The translations under genes and the position numbers were made by a program. A stretch of 64,000 bases of DNA from a virus. Taxonomy: Duplodnaviria > Heunggongvirae > Uroviricota > Caudoviricetes. Below the pieces are notes generated by a model. The model did not search any database, was not told the origin of the DNA, and saw only the letters and a list, made by a program, of their open reading frames with translations. The number at the start of each line of letters is the position of its first letter. Position 1 is the stretch's first letter. Where the stretch lies: positions 1 to 64,000 of the IMG/VR virus record IMGVR_UViG_3300001598_000045, one strand, 5' to 3'. Of the stretch, positions 17,769-54,003 are shown one piece after another.

Positions 17769-18606
17769 ATAAGATGCTTTCCAAAACGCTAAGGTTTTGA
17801 ATTTCTACAAAAGATTTGTTTAACTTTATAACTCCAGGTATTTTCTCCGAAAGTTTATCTTTATCTATTCGTAATGGAGTTTTATTAAACATTCTTAAAA
17901 TATACGTATCTGAATTCGTCCTTACAACAAATCCATCTGCATCATAATAGAAGTAGTCCATATGAACTGGAAAATTTCTATCTAATAGTTTTATTACTCT
18001 ATTATTAAACTCCATAGTTGGAGCATTTTTTAGTGAAGTTCTGAATCCTGTTTGAACTCTCTCTTCATTAAGTATATATTTAATAGTAGTTGTCATAAAC
18101 TCTAGACTACTTTTCCAAGCGGCTTCTTCCGTTCTTTCACCGCCACGGACTCCTATCATCGCATAGGATAAGGGATTAAGTTCCCCTGTTGTATCTGAAA
18201 TGTCTATTGGACGAATCAAGTTTTCATCAATATTTTTCCAACTTTCTTCATCTATTTTAAAAACGTTTCTAAATTCCTTTTTCCCCCATCGCCAAATACG
18301 GCCAATAGAAGATAAAGCTCTACCACTTTCGTGAATATCCCCCTGATGATGATCAAATCTTCCCAGGAAAACATCATAAACAATTGCATTCTCAGGTATC
18401 TTAAAGTTAGGATCCCGAGTTCTAATAACTTTTGTCAAAATACTCTTCTCTTTAAAATAAAGTTGTAGAAGAGCAGTAGTGAGTACATCATCCGCATGAC
18501 ATACTCCATCATGTGTAACCAAAAGAACTTCTTTCTCTTGGTCAAAGTTTTCCAATAAATTTCGCATTGTTTTTAATTTAAATTGTTCCAAAATAAAACC
18601 TGGCAA
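17767..18606 (-). CDS. MYG1/UPF0160-like metal-dependent hydrolase
   Basis: THDGVCHADDV and GRFDHHQGD match the HDGxFHxDE and DHH blocks of the MYG1 family. Confidence 0.55.
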   Translation of the reverse strand: MPGFILEQFKLKTMRNLLENFDQEKEVLLVTHDGVCHADDVLTTALLQLYFKEKSILTKVIRTRDPNFKIPENAIVYDVFLGRFDHHQGDIHESGRALSSIGRIWRWGKKEFRNVFKIDEESWKNIDENLIRPIDISDTTGELNPLSYAMIGVRGGERTEEAAWKSSLEFMTTTIKYILNEERVQTGFRTSLKNAPTMEFNNRVIKLLDRNFPVHMDYFYYDADGFVVRTNSDTYILRMFNKTPLRIDKDKLSEKIPGVIKLNKSFVEIQNLSVLESIL

Positions 18607-18650
18607 GATCTAACTTTACCAGGTTCGTTTATTATTCATATATAAGGCTA

Positions 18651-19121
18651 TTAAGACTTTAGAGGCGTATTAATATTTAGCATATTATTAATACTATTTA
18701 CTTGATTTGTATCAAATATTGTTTTTATAGAATCATTATTATTTAATTTTTCTATCTTTTCCTCTAGTCTATTAATTACTTGCTCTAGATTTTTTATTTT
18801 ATCGTCGAGTTTAGTAATTAATTCTATTCTATCTGTAATTATTTTTTCTAATAATGGTGTAGGATTATCAATTACCTTTTCTAATTCTAATTTTACTAAT
18901 TCATTTATCAGGTCTTTTAGCTCAATATCTGAATTATCTTTTAAGTAATCATTTAAACTACTACATATATTTTCTGCTATATTTACTAGTTTACTTAATC
19001 TTTCATCACCATAAATATAACTAGTTGTTGTACTTACTATGTTATTATTATCAAAGTAATCTTTAATTGTACCATAGCTTGTAGTAACTCCAGTATTATT
19101 TATTATACTATTATTCATTGT
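18651..19121 (-). CDS. hypothetical coiled-coil protein
   Basis: Start placed at the internal Met (MNNSIINN) just downstream of the preceding stop. The ORF-track start at 19241 overlaps the phosphatase gene by 130 nt. Confidence 0.45.
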   Translation of the reverse strand, partial: TMNNSIINNTGVTTSYGTIKDYFDNNNIVSTTTSYIYGDERLSKLVNIAENICSSLNDYLKDNSDIELKDLINELVKLELEKVIDNPTPLLEKIITDRIELITKLDDKIKNLEQVINRLEEKIEKLNNNDSIKTIFDTNQVNSINNMLNINTPLKS

Positions 19122-19851
19122 TATCCTCTCCTTGTACTTTTTTATCAATTTTATCAGGTACTTCAAATAACTCCATAATTCCAAGTCCTCTATATATTGT
19201 TTTATTATAGCTACCGGAATATGAGTTATGATAGTGTCCATATATCCATTTATCTACATTTACATTCTCTAAAACAGAATCTAAATATTTTCTGCTTTCT
19301 ACTATTTTCTCATATTGTTCAACTGGAGTGTCATTTAATCTAGTACACATTGGTTGAAATATTAGTGGTGCTTCGTGAGATACTATAATATCTACGGTTT
19401 TTGGTAATTTTTCTATAGGTACTTTTACAATATCCTCATCTTCCCACCAAACTCTTCTATCTTTCCCTTTTGTTGCTAGTTTTTGATTATATTCTAGCCT
19501 CCAAGAAATATCAGTAGAATTTGCACCCCCAATAGTATAAATATCATAACCACATAGATTATATATTTTATTGTCTTCTAAAAATTTAAGTCTTGGATAA
19601 CTAAATTTATCTAGATCTTTAAAAAATGCTGGATCATCGTGGTTACCTCTTATGGCATGAATTACTATATCTGCTTTTTCTAGTCTATTTTCATATTTTT
19701 TATAGACTTGAGGTAGAGCATTATCAAATCCCATGCCAAAATCTCCAACCACGAGAATATCAGCATTAGTTATTTTGTATCTATTAGTTATTGTCCAAAC
19801 TAATTCAGCAAACTCACCATGAACATCACCACACATTATTAATTTTCTCAT
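19111..19851 (-). CDS. calcineurin-like metallophosphoesterase (PPP-like phosphatase)
   Basis: GDVHGEF, GDFGMG and GNHD metal-binding motifs. Confidence 0.7.
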   Translation of the reverse strand: MRKLIMCGDVHGEFAELVWTITNRYKITNADILVVGDFGMGFDNALPQVYKKYENRLEKADIVIHAIRGNHDDPAFFKDLDKFSYPRLKFLEDNKIYNLCGYDIYTIGGANSTDISWRLEYNQKLATKGKDRRVWWEDEDIVKVPIEKLPKTVDIIVSHEAPLIFQPMCTRLNDTPVEQYEKIVESRKYLDSVLENVNVDKWIYGHYHNSYSGSYNKTIYRGLGIMELFEVPDKIDKKVQGEDNNE

Positions 19852-20381
19852 ATCTGTGTAACATCTAAATAGTCAATATTAAAATTAATTGCAGTATCAT
19901 AGTCAGAAGAAGAGAATGATAGAGGATTAATTACTTTTGGACATGCATCACCTATCATTAACATCTTTGATTTTTCTATATTAGTTAAATTATATTTCTG
20001 TACAAATGACTCTAACATCCCAGTATTTGGTTTTCTCCACTGGTTAGATTTATCATTACTAGGACAAAACATATAATCAACTACTATCTGTTCATTAATA
20101 TATTCAGATAATGCTGCTTTTATATAATCAAATTTAGCAGTCATATATTCTACTTTACTTGCTTTTCCATTCTCTATTCCACCTTGATTAGATACAATAA
20201 AAACATATCCACTATTTTTAGTATCTGCCCATTCTTTTAACTCATTCCAAGTTTTAAAGATAGGCGTACAATCAATAATACATTTAGCGAAAGGACCACC
20301 AGAGAGTGTTTTTATTAATGTACCATCAAGATCTATAAATATAATATCTTTATTTTTTAATTTATCATTCATATTTACCAA
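19848..20381 (-). CDS. HAD-IIIA family phosphatase (PNKP-3'-phosphatase/GmhB-like)
   Basis: Motif I FIDLDGTLIKT; motif II-like VSNQGGI. Confidence 0.65.
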   Translation of the reverse strand: MVNMNDKLKNKDIIFIDLDGTLIKTLSGGPFAKCIIDCTPIFKTWNELKEWADTKNSGYVFIVSNQGGIENGKASKVEYMTAKFDYIKAALSEYINEQIVVDYMFCPSNDKSNQWRKPNTGMLESFVQKYNLTNIEKSKMLMIGDACPKVINPLSFSSSDYDTAINFNIDYLDVTQI

Positions 20382-23835: not shown

Positions 23836-23916
23836 TTAGGTTACTATTTTTTTTTATAATACAGAATCCAGTTAAAAAATAAAACCGGACTTTAATATCC
23901 GGTTTTAAGTAAGTAA
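23836..23916. terminator. pair of convergent stem-loop terminators
   Basis: gtaacc-ttaatta-ggttac with a T-run serves the plus gene. aaaccgga-ctttaata-tccggttt with a minus-sense T-run serves the minus gene. Confidence 0.6.
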
Positions 23917-23924
23917 CTACTTCA

Positions 23925-24179
23925 TTACTTCTGAGGAGCCTCTGCAGCAGGTGCCTGTTGGGCCTGGCCTTTCTTAGCTGCGCGGCGCTTCTTAATTCCT
24001 CGATAGAGGAAGAATCCACCAACGGCAGCAGCAGTTACGGCGGTACCAATCAGGATGCCATTTTTGTGCTCTGCAAAGAAACTACCCTTGGTAGTTACTA
24101 CATTGTTATTGACTTGTGCAGGTTGAGCTGCACGTTGATTCTGACCATTAAAGGTCTTGTTGTTCATGTTGTTATCCAT
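23925..24179 (-). CDS. small membrane protein (Ala/Gly-rich TM, basic C-terminal tail)
   Basis: ILIGTAVTAAAVGGFFLY; GC-rich due to Ala/Gly/Pro codons. Confidence 0.45.
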   Translation of the reverse strand: MDNNMNNKTFNGQNQRAAQPAQVNNNVVTTKGSFFAEHKNGILIGTAVTAAAVGGFFLYRGIKKRRAAKKGQAQQAPAAEAPQK

Positions 24180-24352
24180 AAACGTACGGTTTTAATTTGT
24201 TAATATTTAAAAATTTCCTCGAATTAAAATGTTAATATATTTCTCATAAACTTTGTCGTAGGGGCAGGGATATATAATAATCCCTTTCCCCTATTGACCT
24301 ATTGTTTATGGAAAACAGTGTTGTTATTTTCACTGTGACGAAAAATAAAATA

Positions 24353-24441
24353 AGTATATAATAGGATTCGAACCTATGACTTCCTTTAATTATATTCTCC
24401 AACTATAATTAATGGTGTTCTACCGACTGAACTATATATTT
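24353..24441 (-). tRNA. tRNA-like gene with atypical anticodon/variable region (possible intron or pseudo-tRNA)
   Basis: Minus-sense sequence has a canonical D-arm (TA-GTTC-AGTCGGTA-GAAC-A) and T-arm (ATAGG-TTCGAAT-CCTAT). The acceptor stem has 5 bp plus 2 terminal mismatches. 38 nt lie between the D and T arms, containing a 9-bp palindrome ttaattata/tataattaa. No standard 7-nt anticodon loop can be drawn. Confidence 0.45.
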
Positions 24442-24452
24442 CTTATTTCTTC

Positions 24453-24495
24453 ATATATAAGGCTTTAGGCCTTTTATAGACGGTAATTCTATTTT
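24453..24495 (-). promoter_or_regulatory. conserved phage promoter motif driving the tRNA-like gene
   Basis: Minus-sense AGAATTACCGTCTATAAAAGGCCTAAAGCCTTATATATG, about 20 nt before the tRNA-like 5' end. Confidence 0.55.
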
Positions 24496-24554
24496 TATTA
24501 AAATTTACCAAAAATAAATACCGGAACCCTTTTTAGAGTTCCGGTTTGGCATTA

Positions 24555-47347: not shown

Positions 47348-48381
47348 TAGACTGTATCTTTTTCAAATTGTACACAGTCGTTGAAAATTTTAATTTTTAT
47401 TTATTAATTTATATCCACTATCTTCTTCTGATAGTAATCTTTCTACATAATGTCTAGATCTATGTAATAATTTTGCACAATTAGTAATGCTCCTATATAT
47501 CGTTCCATCAGGGCCTATTATTTTATTTGATACATCAAAATTATCTACTTTATATTTAAATCCTTTTTCTGGATGAAATTTTAGCCAATTATATATAGTA
47601 CCTCTAGATACAGAATTATTTTTAGCACATTCATCCATCGTCCCATACTCTTTTCCATCTGGACCAATAATTTGACGCGCTGTTATTGAATTCGAGCCAG
47701 ATATTTTATCAATTGCCGATTGTTTTATCTTTATATTTTTTCTAGACTCACTTAATTTTTGTTTTTGTTCATCTGAAAATATAATTCCTTTTCTAGAATT
47801 TGACAATTTTTTCCTAGACTCTTCATTTAAAATATGACCTTTTCTTATCTTACTTAATAATTCTTTCGTTTCTTGTGAAGCTTTTTTTCCTTTATGAGAT
47901 TCAGATAATTTCTTTTTTGTCTCATCTGAATGTTTTCGATTAGTATTTAATTTACGTAAATAATCTATACTCTTCTCTCTCAATTCCTCTAATGATTTTA
48001 ATGAAACTCTATAAGGAATTTTATTACCATTTTCATCTAATTTATAGGTATTTTCTTTACGATCACTATGACTTGATTGAATCATTCGTAAATATGCATA
48101 TAACAGTTCATTACTGTCTGGATAAATAAATGTTAATAAATGATGCGCAATTATATGTTCTTTAAAAGTTAATAATACTAAATTATCTTTATTATCATTT
48201 CCACCTAAACATTTAGGAAGTATATGATGTTTATTTAATCCATCCCCTTTTCTCTTTATAACTCCTCTAAATTTACGTGATTCTACTAAATCGTCATATA
48301 CTTTTTTATAATTCATCTTTGCTATAATTAATAAATTTTATAAAATTTTGCTGATTCTATATTAATAGTTCCAGCAATTCT
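47348..48381 (-). mobile_element. group I intron core f carrying the HNH homing endonuclease ORF between the P/Q and R/S elements
   Basis: P/Q AGAATTGCTGGAACTATTAATATAGAATCAGCA at 48349-48381. R/S TTTCAACGACTGTGTA...AAAAGATACAGTCTAAA at 47348-47387, directly after the HNH stop. Confidence 0.6.
47390..48316 (-). CDS. HNH homing endonuclease with NUMOD3 and NUMOD1-like DNA-binding repeats
   Basis: HHILPKCLGGNDNKDNLVLLTFKEHIIAHH (HNH). Repeated KKLSESHKGK/RKKLSNSRKG (NUMOD3-like) and C-terminal GPDGKEYGTMDECAKNNSVSRGTIYNWL x2 (NUMOD1-like). Confidence 0.85.
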   Translation of the reverse strand: MNYKKVYDDLVESRKFRGVIKRKGDGLNKHHILPKCLGGNDNKDNLVLLTFKEHIIAHHLLTFIYPDSNELLYAYLRMIQSSHSDRKENTYKLDENGNKIPYRVSLKSLEELREKSIDYLRKLNTNRKHSDETKKKLSESHKGKKASQETKELLSKIRKGHILNEESRKKLSNSRKGIIFSDEQKQKLSESRKNIKIKQSAIDKISGSNSITARQIIGPDGKEYGTMDECAKNNSVSRGTIYNWLKFHPEKGFKYKVDNFDVSNKIIGPDGTIYRSITNCAKLLHRSRHYVERLLSEEDSGYKLINKN

Positions 48382-49467
48382 TAATCTATATAGACCTGGA
48401 TTATTTGATCTATTCGTAACTTTCGATCCTACCATAAGAGTAGTACGTTTTATCAATCTAACTCGTACGGTATAAACTACCTTATACTCATCTGGATTCA
48501 TAATAATTGGATCTAAAGTATCCGCAGCAATATACTCAGGAAATTTATCGTATATTACTTTTCTATTTTTATTATCATTATACTCTTTAATTACTTTTTC
48601 AGATTGTCTAGCAAAAGTAAAGTCAGGCATCTTTTCAGTTTTAGGTACTTTTGGTTTCTTCATTTCTTGAACCATAATATCAGAAACATAAGCCTCATCT
48701 ATATTGTTCGGTACTTTTAAATAATCCTCAACCGTATATTCTGTTAAATCCTTTCCTTCTTCACCAAATAATCCACCTAATTTTTCATTAAGAGCTCTAT
48801 TTATTTCATCTAATCTTACTGTTTTAAATAAAGTAACTACACTATCACCTGACTTAACTTGTGTGCCAATTGGAGCTAACCATTTTAATGATGCGCTATT
48901 CTTAACATTTATTTTTAAGTCAATAATACTATAGTGAGCCATTCTATTTGCATAAGATTCAGATACGACAAGTGCATCCTCATTTACTAAACCATGATGC
49001 GCTGAGAATAAAACTAACGTATTTAATCCCATCTTATATGTGTCTTTCTCTAAACCAACAGCTCCAGTAATCACATCGCCTTTTTTGACTTTCTGACCTA
49101 CTTTTACTTTTGGCTCAGTATAAACACAAACATCATTCATAGATTGTATTGCACTACGTCTTAATACATCTACCTCTGTCTTATCCGGTAACTCAATAAC
49201 AACTTTATCTTCATCTATTCGCTTTACTTTACCACTCTCATAAGCAAATTTTTCACTAAGAATATTGTTACTAAGCTCTTCATTATTACCAGTATCAACT
49301 AATGGTCTCTGTGCATTAACTAGAGGTATACTTTGTTTAAGCATTCCGGTGCCCATTGAGATTCGCACAGAGTCAGTACTAGAGATAAAAGGTATTCTTC
49401 TAGTTGTTTCAGAAAGACGGTAATCTGGGTGTAAATCAATTAAATCAATTTCTTCTACAGGTACCAT
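48328..49467 (-). CDS. rpoB: RNA polymerase beta subunit, middle coding segment
   Basis: [40 protein letters not shown] aligns to bacterial beta DVHPTHYGR...[36 protein letters not shown] aligns to GDKMAGRHGNKG. The last roughly 20 codons run into intron core f. ATG at 49467; the ORF track lists a TTG at 49479. Confidence 0.8.
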   Translation of the reverse strand: [379 protein letters not shown]

Positions 49468-49720
49468 TTTTCTTTTCAATCTATACTTTACTTCTACCTC
49501 ACCATTCTCATTGGGCTTTAATTTCTTTTCTTTATAATCAACAAACTCTGATGCACAAACTTTTAAATTAAGATAATCTAAATATTGTATTGTTATCTTA
49601 TTAAATTCTTTGTCATATACATCAAATAATATTCCATCATCAGTAATATGTGCCGATACTGTTAATGAGTTTTGAATATTTGTGTTTTGATTGCATTATT
49701 AGATATACTTAAAATATATC

Positions 49721-49837
49721 TTAGGACTATATCACTCTAAAATTATATTAGATTATATACATAGTCTCTGAATATAAAATATTTATTAAAGATATTTATA
49801 CTGCTGATTACTATTAAATTTAGTTTCCAGCATTTTT
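49721..49837 (-). ncRNA. group I intron catalytic core e
   Basis: Minus-sense P AAATGCTGGAAAC, Q TAATCAGCAGTA, R TTCAGAGACTATG, S AGAGTGATATAGTCCTAAG. Confidence 0.55.
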
Positions 49838-49919
49838 ATATAATTTTCCATTTATTTCAATGGCGACCAATTAAAATCGGAGTCATTTATTCAAGATATG
49901 TCAAATCTAAATATCTTGA

Positions 49920-50027
49920 TAGACTGTATCTTTATTATCTTTGCACACAGTCTTTGTATGTAATTATCTATATATTAATTAAAATAATTACACTGCTGAT
50001 TCTATATTAATAGTTCCAGCAATTCTC
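49920..50027 (-). ncRNA. group I intron catalytic core d
   Basis: Minus-sense P GAGAATTGCTGGAAC, Q GAATCAGCAGTG, R ACAAAGACTGTGTG, S AAAGATACAGTCTATC. The P/Q module is nearly identical over 37 nt to those of cores c and f. Confidence 0.55.
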
Positions 50028-50068
50028 AAAGTTCTTAGGAAATTTTAATTTCCTCGGACTACTCTTAT

Positions 50069-51031
50069 TTAATCCGCGAGATCTATAAGATCGCTCAAGC
50101 TTTCATTATATGCAGTTGTCTTTGGAATAGTTACTTTTGCTCCTAAACTTCCAAGGTTCATTGCATTTATTCCGGGTGGTACTTGCACATTAGAATCACC
50201 CGCAGTAGCTTCTTGTGTTCCTTTAAAGAATCTATATGAGAGACGAGTTATTGAAGTTATTTGATCCTGTAACTTACCTTGTTTCATGAAGTAATTTTGT
50301 ATTTGTTTACGAGCTCCATAGTAATTTCTTCTATTATTGCTCTTAAATATAAACTGCATAAAGCCGGTAGGAACAGAGTCAATAGTTTTATCAATAATTA
50401 AATCTCTTAATCTATCATCTCCAAAGGCTAGACATTCCTGAATAAGTTGAGTGGTAATATATTCTGGTTTATAGTCTAGATCTAATTTTATTTGAAACTT
50501 TTTACTTTGTCGTTCTGTAAGTTTCAATAATTCTTTCTTCTCCCCTGTAACAGTATCAATGTCGTCATATTTTATATCTATGGCTCTTTCTGAATATCCT
50601 GTTTCAAAGTTTGTTCTTTTTACTTTAAGAATCTTAGTTTTAATGTCATATCTTCTATCATAGTCAAAGTTAATAATATACTCACCTGAACCTGACATTT
50701 TAATACGACAATCATAATCTGGATTCAATTTATTAGTTGCGATACGATATGCACCCTCTATAATAAAAGCACCATCAATCTCTTTAGGTACTTCAAATTC
50801 AGATTCTAAAATTCCTGGATCATCATTTATAGTATACTCAATTTTAACTTTATGAGATGCAGTTAAACCATTCTCAATAAAATAAGATGCTGGTTTTTCT
50901 GGTTCTTCTACTATATGAAATTTTAGATCTGTTATTTTCTTTTTAGGATTATATTGATCTGCACTATTTAAAAATCTCGATACTAATATTTTAGCTCCAT
51001 GATTCTTAAAATATTCGTTAAAATTACTCAT
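50069..51031 (-). CDS. rpoB: RNA polymerase beta subunit, N-terminal coding segment
   Basis: GAFIIEGAYRIATNKL aligns to the bacterial beta block GTFVINGTERVIVSQL. ITSITRLS aligns to the region before fork loop 2. Confidence 0.8.
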   Translation of the reverse strand: MSNFNEYFKNHGAKILVSRFLNSADQYNPKKKITDLKFHIVEEPEKPASYFIENGLTASHKVKIEYTINDDPGILESEFEVPKEIDGAFIIEGAYRIATNKLNPDYDCRIKMSGSGEYIINFDYDRRYDIKTKILKVKRTNFETGYSERAIDIKYDDIDTVTGEKKELLKLTERQSKKFQIKLDLDYKPEYITTQLIQECLAFGDDRLRDLIIDKTIDSVPTGFMQFIFKSNNRRNYYGARKQIQNYFMKQGKLQDQITSITRLSYRFFKGTQEATAGDSNVQVPPGINAMNLGSLGAKVTIPKTTAYNESLSDLIDLAD

Positions 51032-51381
51032 TACAATAGTGTTTTAATATTTAATTGTTTATACTCACAATCTACCGTGTTAAAAAATTCTTCTATATCT
51101 TTTCTAATACTATCCTTTAAATCTCTAGCTTCTACATATTCACTCATTACCTTTTCACTTCTACATCTAAAAAATGCATCATAAGTAACTAAATAATTAT
51201 ATGTATCTTTTAACTGATATAATACTAACTTAACTGAGAATCTTTCATACTTATCTGGAATATTATCTTTCAAACTAGTATATAAAATATCTCTAGCCTT
51301 TATTACATCTGGATCTTTACTGTCTAATATATTATAGGGAATTTCATATGATAGCGTAATTTTAAAATAATGATCGTTCAT
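51031..51381 (-). CDS. hypothetical protein (possible small polymerase-associated subunit or downstream exon)
   Basis: 116-aa ORF between the beta' and beta genes. Confidence 0.4.
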   Translation of the reverse strand: MNDHYFKITLSYEIPYNILDSKDPDVIKARDILYTSLKDNIPDKYERFSVKLVLYQLKDTYNYLVTYDAFFRCRSEKVMSEYVEARDLKDSIRKDIEEFFNTVDCEYKQLNIKTLL

Positions 51382-51404
51382 ATTTATATCACCTTGTATA
51401 TGTA

Positions 51405-51656
51405 TTAAAAGTCCATATTCATCATGTTACCAGTTATATTTCTTACTGGTCTTGACTCTAACTGAACTTCTTTCTTTTCTGTAATTTCCTCTTTCTTCCT
51501 ATCATCCACAACAGGCATTTCCGGAGTATTTACAGTATTTTCATTTAAACTACCCGAAGACGATGAAGTAGAATAAACTACCTCACCATCTTTACGGATA
51601 ATAATATTGATATTTAATTCTCTCTCAAATCTTGGTAAATCAAATTCAATCTTCAT
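51405..51656 (-). CDS. hypothetical protein; candidate downstream exon following intron core c
   Basis: 83-aa ORF beginning about 75 nt after the S element of core c. Confidence 0.35.
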   Translation of the reverse strand: MKIEFDLPRFERELNINIIIRKDGEVVYSTSSSSGSLNENTVNTPEMPVVDDRKKEEITEKKEVQLESRPVRNITGNMMNMDF

Positions 51657-51739
51657 ATCTATTTTTCATCAAGTTTATCATTCATGAGCAAGCCCAAAAT
51701 TGTTTCCGTCCTTTAAAAAATATACATATCTGTATATTA

Positions 51740-51834
51740 TAGACTATATCTTTAAAATTCATACATAGTCTTTGAAAATAACATATATTTAAAGTTATTC
51801 TGCTGATTCTATATTAAATAGTTCCAGCAATTCC
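51740..51834 (-). ncRNA. group I intron catalytic core c
   Basis: Minus-sense P GGAATTGCTGGAAC, Q GAATCAGCAGAA, R TTCAAAGACTATG, S AAAGATATAGTCTATA. Begins 2 nt after the HNH-2 stop. Confidence 0.55.
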
Positions 51835-51846
51835 TAAAATTCTAAA

Positions 51847-52662
51847 TTAAATAATTTTCTTTCGTTTAGTCTTCTTGTAAAATTTAAAGCCTTTTTCTGG
51901 ATGTTTTTCTATCCAATAGACAATCGTACTATAACTTACTAAATATTTTTTTGCCATTTCTACTACTGAAAGTATTTCATTAGAGGGATCAATAACTAAA
52001 TCCAGATGCTCCCTTCTTTTTATACTTAAGCGTTTCTTTACTTCATCAGTATGATGTTTATTAAAAAATGGATTTGCTTCGCCAGTAAACTTACCTAGCC
52101 TACTTTTTGAAATCTTATCACAATGTTCTTTAGTAAATTTAGGTCTTTTACGATTTTTTAAAGACTTTCGTATTTTTTCTTTATGTTCTTCACTTAAATG
52201 TCCATTATAATTCCAATGTTTTTCTCCTAGCTCACGTTCACTCATTTTCTTTCTTGACTCTTCAGTATGTTTTCTATTATACATCGGATTATTTTCTCCA
52301 GATCTATCGATTTTAGATCTAGAATAAGCTTTTTCTCGTAATGTTGCAATTAGTTTTGAGTTCTTTAATGCAACGAATTTAACATCTTTCCCTCTATTTA
52401 ATGTTTTATCAAATTTTGTCAAAGCAAGAATTGAATATAATAACTTAGAGTTATCTGGGTAAATTTCAGATAATAGTATATGTGCTAAAAGATGTTCTCT
52501 AGCCGTTAATAGTACTTTATTATCAGCTGTATCTGGACCATTTAAACATTTTGGTACAATATGGTGAATTTCATAATACTCTCCTTTTAATTTTGATTTA
52601 TCTAAACCTCTTTTCTTTCTAGAATCCATTAAATCATCATATATTTTTTTATAATTCATTAT
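51847..52662 (-). CDS. HNH-NUMOD homing endonuclease 2 (in frame with the upstream beta' segment)
   Basis: MNYKKIYDDLMDSRKKRG...EIHHIVPKCLNGPDTADNKVLLTAREHLLAH. Its N-terminus is nearly identical to that of HNH-1. NUMOD3-like repeats and a C-terminal NUMOD1-like module. Confidence 0.8.
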   Translation of the reverse strand: MMNYKKIYDDLMDSRKKRGLDKSKLKGEYYEIHHIVPKCLNGPDTADNKVLLTAREHLLAHILLSEIYPDNSKLLYSILALTKFDKTLNRGKDVKFVALKNSKLIATLREKAYSRSKIDRSGENNPMYNRKHTEESRKKMSERELGEKHWNYNGHLSEEHKEKIRKSLKNRKRPKFTKEHCDKISKSRLGKFTGEANPFFNKHHTDEVKKRLSIKRREHLDLVIDPSNEILSVVEMAKKYLVSYSTIVYWIEKHPEKGFKFYKKTKRKKII

Positions 52663-54003
52663 ATAGTAATTTTTAATTTTATTTAATTTAGGACAACATT
52701 TAATTATCACATCACCAGAAAGATCTACATCTCCCTTAAGTGCTTTATCAACAATTTTAGAACTATAACCATAACTCAAAACAGTATAGAATGATTTTTT
52801 ATTTAACACAGATTGACCCGCACCTTGATATTGTATTTCCTCTAATTTATCTTTAGGTCCATAAGTTAATTTAGTTAAACCTACAAACAATAACTCAATA
52901 ATTTCTTCTGGAGTCGAATCTAAAGATGATAAACCAGTCTTCATATATCCATCATCAGTTAAAGTATACATCTGCTTACGGAAAATTAAATATATATCAT
53001 TTAGTCTCTTTGGTCCTAATACACTTGATACAGTTCTCATATTAACTACACCAGAACAAATCTTATCAAACTTATGAACCTGAGCACCATCTGGAAAATA
53101 ATACATACTTCTTGGATTATATTGATATTCTTGATTACCAATAAATACATGAATCTCTCCTTTATTATCTTCTGTATATTTAATTATACCATCATCATAT
53201 GCATAACAATCTGCTACATTAATTGTTTCTTTTTCAAAATATTTAGTTCCATTTCCACCTTTTGCATTCATTAAATTAATTAATGTATTTACTTTTACAA
53301 TAGGTGAACTAGTATTATATGCAACACAAATATTTTCTCCTTTTTCAAATTTTGTTTTTCCTAAAGTTACAAGATTATCTGGACGTGGATATTTTAATTC
53401 AGCGCCTCTAACTTTTAAATATATCCACTTTCCTTCTTCACTAAAAGTACATGGTTTATCTGCTACTAAATAACCAGATTTATCCAAAACTCTTTCATGA
53501 CCACCGTGTTTTAATCCTAATGCAGCTTGTGTAGTACCTTCTGTAAAACTTGTTGCAAAAGATAATCCAATAGCAGCTCCATCAGTAAAATCAGATACAC
53601 CTGGACGATGACCTATTAAATCAGGAGTCACTACATTCAAGTCACCTTTTACTTTTGTAACTATAGAACGAACAGGAACTAAATCATTTTCATCTCCTTT
53701 TGCTATCGGAGTATTAGGATAAACTTTTCCATTTGGTGCAGTTCTTCCTAATGCTTTATAACGAGGAATTAATAAACCTTCATTAGTCTTGTCTTCTCCT
53801 TCATGATAAACGAAATTATTTAATACGAAGGAAATTTGTCTTGTTAAATATCCCGAAGTAGGACATATATAGCCTTTAAAACTATATACGGAATTATAAT
53901 CTCTATAATTCATTAGACTATACCATGAGATAATAAATATATCCCTACAATATTTAGTCGTTGATCTTATTACTACATTACTACTCGGCTTTAATGTCTT
54001 CAT
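52663..54003 (-). CDS. rpoC: RNA polymerase beta' subunit, C-terminal coding segment (trigger-loop region)
   Basis: TSGYLTRQ aligns to bacterial NSGYLTRRL. GAAIGLSFATSFTEGTTQAALGLKHGG aligns to the trigger loop [36 protein letters not shown] aligns to TGLSSLVVLDS. The 5' roughly 40 codons may be intron. Confidence 0.75.

What the first reader, a model, noticed from the sequence alone, without database searches (positions are those of the whole stretch)
24353..24495. tRNA-like gene with canonical D- and T-arms but an aberrant 38-nt anticodon/variable region and a mismatched acceptor end
On the minus strand the D-arm (GTTC-AGTCGGTA-GAAC) and T-arm (ATAGG-TTCGAAT-CCTAT) are textbook. The D-T distance is 15 nt longer than a class I tRNA. 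That region contains a 9-bp palindrome ttaattata/tataattaa and no clean 7-nt anticodon loop. Acceptor pairs 1-72 and 2-71 are mismatched. It sits under its own copy of the conserved promoter. It could be an intron-containing tRNA, a type II-like tRNA, a decoy or pseudo-tRNA, or an attachment-site remnant.
Basis: seen in the sequence. Interest (0 to 1): 0.6.

Follow-up and report, generated by a model that had tools for sequence, protein, structure and literature searches.

The report
Phage tRNA look-alike that cannot decode
A large gut-type phage carries a small RNA gene that keeps the core shape of a tRNA, but its anticodon arm is remodelled and its two ends are zipped together, so it most likely acts as a tRNA mimic and not as a working tRNA.

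Summary
On the minus strand at 24441..24353 lies a tRNA-like gene that scores 38.7 bits on Rfam tRNA (gathering score 29), although default ARAGORN misses it. The D arm, T arm, 5-nt variable loop and all tertiary-contact bases are canonical. The anticodon arm is a 33-nt hairpin with 11 pairs and a 9-nt loop. Pairs 1-72 and 2-71 are mismatched. A full copy of the phage's bipartite promoter sits about 10 nt upstream.

One homologue exists, L200 from an IMG/VR phage contig of 113 kb. It has the same promoter, D arm and T arm. Its anticodon arm is only 13 nt. In both copies the "mismatched acceptor end" is a small bubble that leads into an 8-bp leader-trailer helix, and that helix covaries between them.

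So this is not an intron-bearing tRNA, a class II tRNA, an ochre suppressor or an att remnant. It is a conserved, separately transcribed, non-decoding tRNA mimic with closed ends and a freely variable arm. It was probably derived from a phage tRNA. What it binds is unknown, and a decoy or adaptor role is inferred only. I rate it a new variant of a known kind, of moderate interest.

The parts
24452..24485 (-). Bipartite phage promoter: TACCGTCT box at 24485..24478 and CCTTATATATG box at 24462..24452. Transcription probably starts at or just after G24452.
   Evidence: The motif is enriched 22 times against 3.5 expected. The bipartite form occurs 5 times against 0 expected. The same promoter precedes the homologue in L200. 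The start site is inferred, not mapped.
24442..24449 (-). Leader strand GAAAUAAG of the 8-bp basal (leader-trailer) helix.
   Evidence: It pairs with 24354..24347 in the MFE folds. L200 has GUAAUAAA/UUUAUUAC at the same place. All 8 pairs form in both copies, with 2 double changes and 1 single change.
24353..24441 (-). tRNA-like body, tRNA positions 1-73. It comprises a 2x1 bubble (A1, A2 / A71), a 5-bp all-A/U acceptor stem (24439..24435 with 24360..24356), U8 A9, the D arm, the long arm, the variable loop and the T arm. C24354 (position 72) and U24353 (position 73) also form the inner end of the trailer strand, so this part overlaps the trailer part by two bases.
   Evidence: Rfam RF00005 scores 38.7 bits over 24439..24356. 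The MFE fold is a cloverleaf. ARAGORN finds it only with -ps.
24417..24432 (-). D arm GUUC-AGUCGGUA-GAAC, with A14, G15, G18, G19 and A21.
   Evidence: It is identical in L200 except for C17 to U.
24383..24415 (-). Expanded 'anticodon' arm of 33 nt: CC-A-UUAAUUAUA / UAUAAUUAA-A-GG (11 pairs plus an A.A mismatch), with the 9-nt loop GUUGGAGAA at 24403..24395.
   Evidence: Inverted repeat I2. Arm MFE is -5.7 kcal/mol, matched or beaten by 1.6% of shuffles. Only 9 such repeats occur in 64 kb. The corresponding arm in L200 is 13 nt, with only the two outer pairs shared.
24361..24382 (-). Variable loop AAGUC (24382..24378) and T arm AUAGG-UUCGAAU-CCUAU (24377..24361).
   Evidence: L200 has AGGUC and UUCGAGU; everything else is identical.
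24347..24354 (-). Trailer strand CUUAUUUU of the basal helix.
24312..24336 (-). Weak terminator-like hairpin ACAGUG-N10-CACUGU followed by UUU.
   Evidence: The terminator scanner did not call it. L200 has a strong 18-bp hairpin plus a U run at the same position.
24240..24314 (-). Very stable long hairpin between the tRNA-like gene and the next ORF. Its relation to the tRNA-like gene is unknown.
   Evidence: Fold of 24345..24230 gives z = -5.8, with 0 of 200 shuffles as stable.
23925..24179 (-). 84-aa N/Q-rich membrane-protein ORF. It has no recognisable promoter of its own and may be co-transcribed by read-through. A strong terminator follows at 23907..23880.

Best explanation
This is a phage gene for a small, non-decoding tRNA mimic.

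**Shown**
- It is a real tRNA-derived sequence. It has a complete class I tRNA core: U8, A9, D arm, 5-nt variable loop, T arm and all the usual tertiary-contact bases.
- It sits about 10 nt downstream of a full copy of the phage's own bipartite promoter. The preceding operon ends at a strong terminator.
- A homologue in another phage of the same promoter type (L200) keeps the promoter, the core and a following terminator.
- The anticodon arm is not conserved: 33 nt here and 13 nt in L200. Neither copy has a usable anticodon loop.
- The acceptor stem does not end freely. After a small bubble at 1-2/71-72 it continues into an 8-bp leader-trailer helix, which is kept by compensatory changes.

**Inferred**
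- The transcript is roughly 110-145 nt. It starts at the G of TATATG and folds into an L-shaped tRNA body standing on a stacked helix of about 14 layers that hides both ends.
- It cannot reach the decoding centre. As transcribed, it has no free CCA end to be charged.
- It works by presenting a tRNA elbow and an acceptor-T helix to a tRNA-binding protein of the host or the phage. Candidates are a processing or modifying enzyme, or a tRNA-directed defence nuclease. In that role it would be a decoy, an adaptor or a stable scaffold.
- It probably arose from a phage tRNA gene. The canonical tRNA with the most similar D and T arms that I found is a tRNA-Asn(GUU).
For: **tRNA identity**
- Rfam tRNA scores 38.7 bits here and 43.1 bits in L200, both above the gathering score of 29.
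- The tertiary-contact set is canonical, read directly from the sequence.
- The long-hairpin cloverleaf costs -13.2 kcal/mol against -6.2 for the ARAGORN alternative.

**Expression signals**
- Promoter enrichment and the full bipartite copy.
- An upstream terminator at 24545..24520 isolates the unit.

**The homologue L200**
- It was retrieved with a pattern that fixed only CTTATATATG plus TAGTTCAG. Yet it also shares the TACCGTCT box, the rest of the D arm, the variable loop, the T arm, a leader-trailer helix and a terminator.
- blastn between the two loci gives E = 3e-8 and 6e-4 for the two halves. The flanking protein genes are not homologous.

**Structure conservation**
- On the structural alignment, 100% of the 57 cells pair.
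- 8 pairs change on both sides, 7 of them in the basal/acceptor helix.
- Slid controls pair at only 37-55%.

**Not a decoder**
- Arm lengths are 33 nt and 13 nt, against 17 in a tRNA.
- The standard genetic code fits the window, and TAA is the main stop codon.
Against: - Only two members are known, so the covariation evidence is thin. Five of the eight double changes (AUAUA/UAUAU to UAUAU/AUAUA) could be a single register slip in an AU repeat.
- My structural alignment was made by hand.
- The fold of the tRNA-like RNA plus its stem is only marginally better than shuffles: z = -1.9, or -1.3 without the leader.
- The acceptor and basal helices are almost pure A-U and therefore weak.
- Expression, RNA ends and stability are not shown by any data.
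- The terminator after the window copy is weak. The RNA might simply be the 5' part of the mRNA for the 84-aa ORF.
- No binding partner is known. The decoy or adaptor role is pure inference.
- No copy was found in the other related loci I fetched.
Confidence: 0.55

Rival explanations
1. It is a decaying tRNA pseudogene. A phage tRNA gene suffered an indel or palindromic duplication in the anticodon arm and A/T-biased decay of the acceptor stem, and now has no function. The promoter is simply left over.
For: - Default ARAGORN rejects it.
- The acceptor end is mismatched and all A/U. The genome is 28% G+C.
- The fold z-score is weak.
- It is absent from most related loci.
- Aberrant or 'pseudo' tRNAs are reported to be common in huge phages (bioRxiv 10.1101/356790; PMC6784885).
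Against: - A second copy in a phage whose neighbouring genes are not homologous keeps the promoter, the terminator and a nearly identical D/V/T core. The stems change in a compensatory way.
- Every tertiary-contact base is intact, although G and C are otherwise rare in this gene.
- The leader-trailer complementarity is present in both copies with different sequences.
Confidence: 0.15
2. It is a cis-acting processing or stability module. The tRNA-like fold sits at the 5' end of the mRNA for the 84-aa membrane protein. It serves either as an RNase P / RNase Z cleavage handle or as a 5' stabiliser, and is not a free-standing RNA.
For: - The hairpin after the window copy is only a weak terminator.
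- The 84-aa ORF has no promoter box of its own. The next strong terminator comes after that ORF.
- The whole 273-nt leader is highly structured, z = -4.4.
- The bubble at 1-2/71-72 lies where RNase P and RNase Z would cut. This last point rests on general knowledge of how those enzymes measure a tRNA.
Against: - In L200 the tRNA-like gene is followed at once by an 18-bp hairpin plus a U run.
- About 670 nt of non-coding sequence then follow before the next ORF. In L200 it therefore looks like an independent gene.
- A paired leader and trailer normally hinders RNase P.
Confidence: 0.15
3. It is an intron-containing or otherwise processed decoding tRNA. About 16 nt of the arm would be removed to give a working tRNA, for example with anticodon GGA, UAU or UAA.
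For: - The inner 7 nt of the loop, UUGGAGA, look like an anticodon loop: U33, GGA, purine 37.
- Deleting 12-16 nt gives default ARAGORN calls.
- 'Enigmatic introns' have been reported in tRNAs of Lak megaphages (PMC6784885).
- Another phage, whose SPFH protein is 74% identical to this one's, has a tRNA-Arg(UCU) split by an insert of about 455 nt that looks like a group I intron.
Against: - The helix has no bulge-helix-bulge motif and no bulges at all.
- It is far too short for a group I intron.
- The deletion scan gives many mutually exclusive anticodons.
- The acceptor stem has 5 A-U pairs plus two mismatches.
- The homologue has a 13-nt arm, which no splicing could turn into an anticodon arm.
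- No splicing endonuclease or RNA ligase was seen among the roughly 40 ORFs I scanned.
Confidence: 0.05
4. It is a class II-like ochre suppressor tRNA with anticodon UUA, as ARAGORN draws it at lowered threshold.
For: ARAGORN -ps reports tRNA-Stop(tta), 91 nt.
Against: - That fold has A33, U37, U.U and U.G pairs in the anticodon stem, and an unstructured 21-nt variable region.
- It is 7 kcal/mol worse than the long-hairpin fold.
- The canonical 5-nt variable loop AAGUC is used by the Rfam alignment.
- TAA ends 60 of 83 long ORFs, and the standard code gives 86% coding coverage.
- L200 has no such arm.
Confidence: 0.02

Closest known systems
YrlA / bacterial Y RNAs with a tRNA-like domain (Chen et al. 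2014, PMC4201824)
   Same: - It is a non-coding RNA whose D-like and T-like arms and tertiary contacts mimic tRNA.
- Its ends are locked in a long helix, and it does not decode.
- It is found in bacteria and in some phages.
- Its tRNA-like part is recognised by tRNA enzymes.
   Different: - YrlA is permuted. [quoted passage not shown] Here the order is the normal tRNA order, and the closing helix extends the acceptor stem.
- YrlA lies next to a Ro60 (rsr) gene and carries a Ro-binding motif. No Ro60 gene was seen here.
- Rfam gives no Y-RNA hit here.
Aberrant or 'pseudo' tRNAs with enigmatic inserts in huge gut phages (Lak megaphages; Devoto et al. 2019, PMC6784885)
   Same: - The hosts are low-G+C, large phages of Bacteroidota-type bacteria.
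- The tRNA-like genes are larger than normal, are missed or called pseudo by standard tools, and have no known function.
   Different: - The Lak inserts are about 80-93 nt, sit at position 37/38 of otherwise normal tRNAs, and contain T-arm-like sequence.
- Here the arm is a plain hairpin, the acceptor end is closed, and the homologue has a shortened arm.
- This window uses the standard genetic code. Lak phages use an alternative one.
tmRNA tRNA-like domain
   Same: It has an acceptor-T-arm mimic without an anticodon arm, and some phages encode it.
   Different: - tmRNA has a free, alanine-charged CCA end, a reduced D arm and an mRNA-like part.
- ARAGORN's tmRNA search and Rfam find nothing here.
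Phage T4 small stable RNAs RNAC and RNAD
   Same: They are phage-encoded small RNAs of still unknown function (PMC9697503). From memory, they are encoded with the T4 tRNA cluster.
   Different: - There is no sequence relation.
- I did not check how tRNA-like they are.
- They are processed from a tRNA-cluster transcript and do not come from a dedicated promoter. This too is from memory.
mascRNA and plant-virus tRNA-like structures
   Same: They are tRNA-shaped RNA modules used for processing or for recruiting tRNA enzymes, not for decoding.
   Different: - They belong to eukaryotic systems.
- They have open acceptor ends that are cleaved and CCA-tailed or charged.
- They are unrelated in sequence.

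Membership tests
Canonical decoding tRNA (Rfam RF00005) | Cloverleaf core: D arm, T arm (GTTCRANYC), variable loop and conserved tertiary-contact bases; score above the curated threshold. | tested here: met
   38.7 bits against a gathering score of 29. U8, A9, A14, G15, G18, G19, A21, G46, C48, G53, U54, U55, C56, A58 and C61 are all present.
Canonical decoding tRNA (Rfam RF00005) | 5-bp anticodon stem with a 7-nt loop, U33 and purine 37. | tested here: not met
   Here the arm has 11 pairs in a 12-position helix plus a 9-nt loop. The L200 homologue has about 3 pairs plus the loop GAAAUAA, without U33.
Canonical decoding tRNA (Rfam RF00005) | 7-bp acceptor stem ending in a free discriminator/CCA end. 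| tested here: not met
   There are 5 A-U pairs, then A.A and A.C. The strands then continue into an 8-bp leader-trailer helix that is conserved in L200. CCA is not encoded.
Canonical decoding tRNA (Rfam RF00005) | Aminoacylation and use on the ribosome. | not testable with these tools
   Needs charging assays or tRNA sequencing.
tRNA with a protein-spliced (archaeal/eukaryal type) intron | Bulge-helix-bulge motif at the exon-intron junctions; removal restores a canonical anticodon arm. | tested here: not met
   The helix is continuous apart from one A.A mismatch. The deletion scan gives many arbitrary anticodons. A true archaeal example recovered by chance (L141) shows the expected bulged helix.
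tRNA with a group I intron in the anticodon loop | Intron of roughly 200 nt or more with P1 (U.G at the 5' splice site) and a catalytic core. | tested here: not met
   Only 16 nt are extra. By contrast, L128 carries an insert of about 455 nt with a textbook P1 pairing in a tRNA-Arg(UCU).
Class II tRNA (long variable arm) | Normal anticodon arm plus a stem-loop variable arm. | tested here: not met
   The class II reading needs a poor anticodon stem and an unstructured 21-nt variable region. It costs -6.2 against -13.2 kcal/mol.
YrlA / Y RNA tRNA mimic | Permuted order T arm - acceptor-like hairpin - D arm; Ro60-binding helix; location next to rsr. | tested here: not met
   The order is the normal tRNA order and there is no Rfam Y-RNA hit. 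No Ro60 gene appeared among the scanned ORFs, but I did not scan every ORF. The defining features come from PMC4201824.
tmRNA | tRNA-like domain plus a tag-peptide reading frame and pseudoknots. | tested here: not met
   The ARAGORN tmRNA search found nothing, even at 80% threshold. Rfam found nothing.
Phage attachment site within a tRNA gene | A copy of only the 3' part of a host tRNA, next to an integrase. | tested here: not met
   The full cloverleaf is present with its own promoter. No integrase was found among the neighbouring ORFs I scanned. The phage encodes its own multisubunit RNA polymerase, as jumbo phages do.
Proposed new family: closed-end phage tRNA mimic (this window plus L200) | Phage bipartite promoter, 8-bp leader-trailer helix, bubble, 5-bp A/U acceptor, canonical D/V/T core, arm of variable length, terminator. 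| tested here: met
   Both members show every feature. The family has only two members so far.

The most novel reading that the evidence does not exclude
The window copy and L200 are the first two members of an undescribed class of phage small RNAs. They are tRNA mimics with closed ends, made from a dedicated phage promoter, in which the old anticodon arm has become a freely variable arm. They would act as decoys or adaptors for a tRNA-binding factor, for example by blunting a tRNA-directed host defence or by recruiting a tRNA enzyme. They also belong to a wider set of 'promoter - closed stem - terminator' RNA cassettes in these phages. That set includes a different ~170-nt RNA at 17702..17530 and a conserved ~600-nt non-coding RNA.
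Probability: 0.2. Interest if true: 0.7.

Novelty: new variant of a known kind. Interest (0 to 1): 0.5.

Why it matters
- **Annotation.** Phage tRNA genes are now seen as weapons against host defences that cut tRNA. A conserved phage RNA that keeps only the tRNA body would widen that picture from spare tRNAs to tRNA mimics. It would also give a concrete example of what some of the many "pseudo" or "undetermined" tRNAs in large phage genomes may be.
- **Practical warning.** Standard tools either miss this gene (default ARAGORN) or call it a suppressor tRNA (ARAGORN at lowered threshold). That second call could wrongly suggest stop-codon recoding.
- **Promoter.** The shared promoter also defines a transcription signal for a group of uncultured, low-G+C, large phages.

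Tried and rejected
**Searches for the element itself**
- An exact or near-exact copy in IMG/VR: none.
- JGI metagenome scan with D arm + long gap + T loop: only an unrelated odd tRNA-like gene, L005/L006.
- GTDB genome scan: only L140, which belongs to that same unrelated family and lies in a Xylanibacter prophage-like region, and an archaeal intron-containing tRNA, L141.
- blastn of the element and of 4 kb around it against GenBank phages: only generic D-arm or T-arm matches.

**Synteny through neighbouring genes**
- SPFH gene. Homologues are partly bacterial, so this gene is a poor marker. The phage loci had no tRNA-like copy, or (L128-L130) carried a tRNA-Arg with a large intron-like insert. 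Their other neighbours are not homologous.
- 196-aa gene: no tRNA-like copy in the relatives.
- 241-aa and 84-aa genes: no relatives at all.

**Broad patterns**
- A broad 'long D-T gap' pattern in IMG/VR returned a mixed bag: tRNA-Met false matches, giant-virus tRNA-Tyr genes with short introns, class II-like tRNA-Ile(UAU), and several other odd tRNA-likes. None was a homologue.
- T-arm pattern. It gave ordinary tRNAs and a class I 'tRNA-Ser(GGA)' with the loop A[G/A]GGAGU. The shared GGAG with the window's loop is intriguing, but I could not show homology.
- The promoter + D-arm pattern is the one that found L200. The last IMG/VR scan found no third member.

**Readings considered and rejected**
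- Alternative genetic code.
- tmRNA.
- YrlA membership.
- Shine-Dalgarno decoy, suggested by GGAG in the loop. This is unlikely to matter, because only 2 of 79 ORFs have an SD-like motif upstream.

**Not attempted.** I did not build a covariance model.

Full report
**1. What is in the sequence**

All features below are read on the minus strand. In order they are:

- a promoter copy;
- GAA;
- leader GAAAUAAG (24449..24442);
- AA;
- AUAUA;
- UA;
- D arm GUUC-AGUCGGUA-GAAC (24432..24417);
- A26;
- a 33-nt arm (24415..24383);
- variable loop AAGUC;
- T arm AUAGG-UUCGAAU-CCUAU (24377..24361);
- UAUAU;
- A;
- trailer CUUAUUUU (24354..24347).

The tools agree that this is tRNA-like but not a standard tRNA.
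- Rfam's tRNA model matches 24439..24356 at 38.7 bits (gathering score 29). It places 29 nt where 13 are expected in the anticodon region. This is the only tRNA hit in the 64-kb window, even at relaxed E-values.
- Default ARAGORN finds nothing.
- At lowered threshold ARAGORN draws a 'tRNA-Stop(tta)' with a 21-nt variable region.
- RNAfold gives a cloverleaf with a long anticodon hairpin.

The arm is an inverted repeat of 12 positions with 11 pairs (one A.A mismatch) and a 9-nt loop, GUUGGAGAA.
- With tRNA-register constraints, the long-hairpin cloverleaf scores -13.2 kcal/mol. The ARAGORN fold scores -6.2.
- Inverted repeats of this quality occur only 9 times in the window. One lying exactly in register with the anticodon-stem position is therefore not a chance event.

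Every base that makes a tertiary contact in a class I tRNA is present: U8, A9, A14, G15-C48, G18, G19, A21, G46, G53-C61, U54, U55, C56 and A58 (read).

**2. Genome context**

The window is 28% G+C and mostly codes on the minus strand.
- It encodes a ClpB-like ATPase, a DnaB-like helicase, Thy1, homing-endonuclease modules, and fragments of the beta and beta' subunits of a multisubunit RNA polymerase. This gene set resembles a jumbo phage.
- The standard genetic code fits: 86% stop-to-stop coverage, and TAA ends 60 of 83 long ORFs.
- Shine-Dalgarno-like motifs are almost absent upstream of ORFs, 2 of 79. The SPFH lipoprotein gene next door has close homologues in Bacteroidales-type bacterial contigs. 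Both points suggest a Bacteroidota host, but this is an inference.
- The same DNA appears in an independent Logan assembly of one run, SRR1221442.

**3. Expression signals**

- The 11-mer CCTTATATATG (at most 1 mismatch) occurs 22 times against 3.5 expected. Most copies lie just upstream of ORFs on the coding strand.
- The two-box form TACCGYCT-N12-20-YCTTATA occurs 5 times against 0 expected. One full copy is at 24485..24452.
- A strong terminator at 24545..24520 ends the preceding 45-aa gene. The tRNA-like gene therefore has its own start signal.
- Downstream there is only a weak hairpin plus UUU (24336..24312), then a very stable long hairpin (24314..24240, z = -5.8).
- The 84-aa ORF follows, and then a strong terminator at 23907..23880.

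**4. The homologue**

Most searches failed (see 'tried and rejected'). One pattern fixed only the promoter core and the first 8 nt of the D arm, and it found L200 on a 113-kb IMG/VR contig with 26% G+C.

L200 reads: TACCGTCTGAAAAACCTTAATAACCTTATATAT-GTAATAAA-A-TATAT-TA-GTTC-AGTTGGTA-GAAC-A-CTTGAAATAAGAG-AGGTC-ATAGG-TTCGAGT-CCTAT-ATATA-G-TTTATTAC. An 18-bp hairpin and a U run follow.

- Rfam scores it 43.1 bits as tRNA, with only 9 nt where 13 are expected.
- blastn between L200 and the window aligns only the promoters, the two halves of the tRNA-like gene and a separate non-coding region.
- The flanking protein genes are not homologous.

**5. What the comparison shows**

I made a register-correct alignment by padding L200 with N and counted pairs on it.
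- All 57 informative cells form standard pairs.
- 8 pairs change on both sides.
- Slid controls pair at 37-55%.

Helix by helix:
- **Leader-trailer helix.** It is 8 bp in both copies: GAAAUAAG/CUUAUUUU here and GUAAUAAA/UUUAUUAC in L200. There are two double changes and one single change.
- **Acceptor stem.** The 5-bp stem is flipped at every pair. This may be a single slip in an AU repeat.
- **Bubble.** Between the two helices lies a small bubble, 2x1 here and 1x1 (A.G) in L200. It sits exactly where pairs 1-72 and 2-71 of a tRNA would be.
- **D arm, variable loop and T arm.** These differ at only three bases.
- **Anticodon arm.** It shares only its two outer pairs. It is 33 nt here and 13 nt in L200, against 17 in any tRNA.

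A decoding tRNA cannot tolerate either arm length. In L200 the helix begins at the very G of the TATATG box.

**6. Interpretation**

The data support a conserved, separately promoted, non-decoding tRNA mimic. Its ends are closed by a helix, and its former anticodon arm is free to vary. This is firmer than 'pseudogene'. The promoter, the terminator and the core are kept, and the stems are compensated, between phages whose neighbouring genes differ.

- **Shown:** the sequence anatomy, the motif enrichment, the homology and the pairing pattern.
- **Inferred:** the transcription start, the RNA's size and stability, the L-shape and the function.
- **Most likely mode of action:** the RNA presents a tRNA elbow and acceptor-T helix to a tRNA-binding protein, acting as a decoy, adaptor or stable scaffold. 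I put about 0.25 on that part. I put about 0.75 on 'maintained non-decoding tRNA-like RNA'.
- **Possible ancestor:** the canonical tRNA with the same D and V/T arms found in similar low-G+C phage contigs is tRNA-Asn(GUU). That search was biased by its own pattern.

**7. Rivals**

- A plain pseudogene (0.15).
- A cis-acting 5' processing or stability module for the 84-aa mRNA (0.15). The weak terminator here favours this, and the strong terminator in L200 argues against it.
- A spliced or processed decoding tRNA (0.05).
- A class II ochre suppressor (0.02).
- An att-site remnant is rejected.

**8. Comparison with what is known**

- The closest in concept is YrlA, a bacterial and phage Y RNA with a tRNA-like domain. 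YrlA is permuted and tied to Ro60 (PMC4201824), and Rfam does not match it here.
- Lak megaphage 'pseudo tRNAs with enigmatic introns' come from a similar biological setting. They differ in anatomy: inserts of 80-93 nt at position 37/38 (PMC6784885).
- tmRNA, the T4 RNAs RNAC and RNAD (function unknown, PMC9697503), mascRNA and viral tRNA-like structures are looser analogues.
- I found no paper or Rfam family describing a tRNA-order mimic with closed ends and a variable arm. The literature library is incomplete.

**9. Verdict**

This is a real feature. I rate it a new variant of a known kind, with interest about 0.5. The main weakness is that the family has only two members and there are no expression data.

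Noticed in passing
window 16900..17530 (-), within the ORF-free stretch 15557..17769; L200:900-1590: A non-coding region of about 600 nt is conserved between the window and L200. Identity is 69-72%, with strongly conserved blocks such as ATACTGAAGGTG..GAGGGA, CAAAAGCATGTA, AAGGATGCA and ATATACAG. In L200 it lies directly downstream of the tRNA-like gene. It has no Rfam match. It is a candidate large structured RNA.
   Followed up: partly
window 17530..17713 (-): A second small-RNA cassette. It has a promoter box (17713..17703), a ~170-nt multi-hairpin RNA closed by a leader-trailer stem (z = -3.2), and a terminator hairpin plus U run. It occupies the slot that the tRNA-like gene holds in L200. 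It is not tRNA-like by Rfam.
   Followed up: partly
window, about 22 sites (e.g. 2758, 9904, 18647, 21326, 24462, 24790, 31983, 32717, 33332, 44565, 45037): A phage-specific bipartite promoter-like motif, TACCGYCT-N~15-CCTTATATATG, lies upstream of many genes. The same motif is found in L128 and L200. The phage encodes its own split multisubunit RNA polymerase.
   Followed up: partly
L128:4906-5424 (also L129, L130): Another phage, whose SPFH protein is 74% identical to this one's, carries a tRNA-Arg(UCU) just downstream of its SPFH gene. An insert of about 455 nt splits the gene in the anticodon loop. The P1 pairing is textbook group I (CUU|CUAA with UUAG|GAG, and U.G at the splice site). Rfam does not report it as a group I intron at E<1.
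   Followed up: partly
L140:5319-5403 (Xylanibacter muris), L005, L006, L042/L074/L114, L015/L028/L110: A separate family of tRNA-like genes in Bacteroidales prophage or phage sequences. They have normal acceptor, D and T arms but an extended 'anticodon' arm. That arm has a 3-4-bp stem, an AAA bulge, a 3-4-bp stem and a variable loop. The acceptor and T stems covary. L140 lies next to a Peptidase_S24 repressor-like gene.
   Followed up: partly
L144:7914-7986 and 13 other IMG/VR loci (L146, L147, L150, L156, L165, L168, L169, L172, L173, L176, L177, L181): A conserved class I 'tRNA-Ser(GGA)' with the anticodon loop A[G/A]GGAGU (no U33). It sits between tRNA-Phe and tRNA-Cys in large tRNA arrays of phage contigs of 50-185 kb and about 30% G+C. 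Normal class II tRNA-Ser genes lie alongside.
   Followed up: partly
L040, L047, L075, L084, L090, L098, L121, L124, L126: Viral contigs carry tRNA-Ile(UAU) genes with a long, stem-loop variable arm, a class II-like architecture. This is unusual for tRNA-Ile.
   Followed up: no
window 24240..24314 (-): An exceptionally stable long imperfect hairpin with a G+C-rich tip lies between the tRNA-like gene and the 84-aa ORF. z = -5.8, and no U run follows it.
   Followed up: no
window 17767..20381 (-): A run of genes for a MYG1-family exonuclease-like protein, a calcineurin-like phosphoesterase and a PNK3P-type polynucleotide 3'-phosphatase. They may be nucleic-acid end-healing enzymes. No RNA ligase was seen among the ORFs I scanned.
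   Followed up: partly
window 47390..54003 (-): NUMOD3 homing-endonuclease modules lie next to and within the RNA-polymerase subunit genes. One is a 718-aa ORF whose C-terminal part matches homing endonucleases. This suggests intein- or intron-type invasion of the polymerase genes.
   Followed up: no
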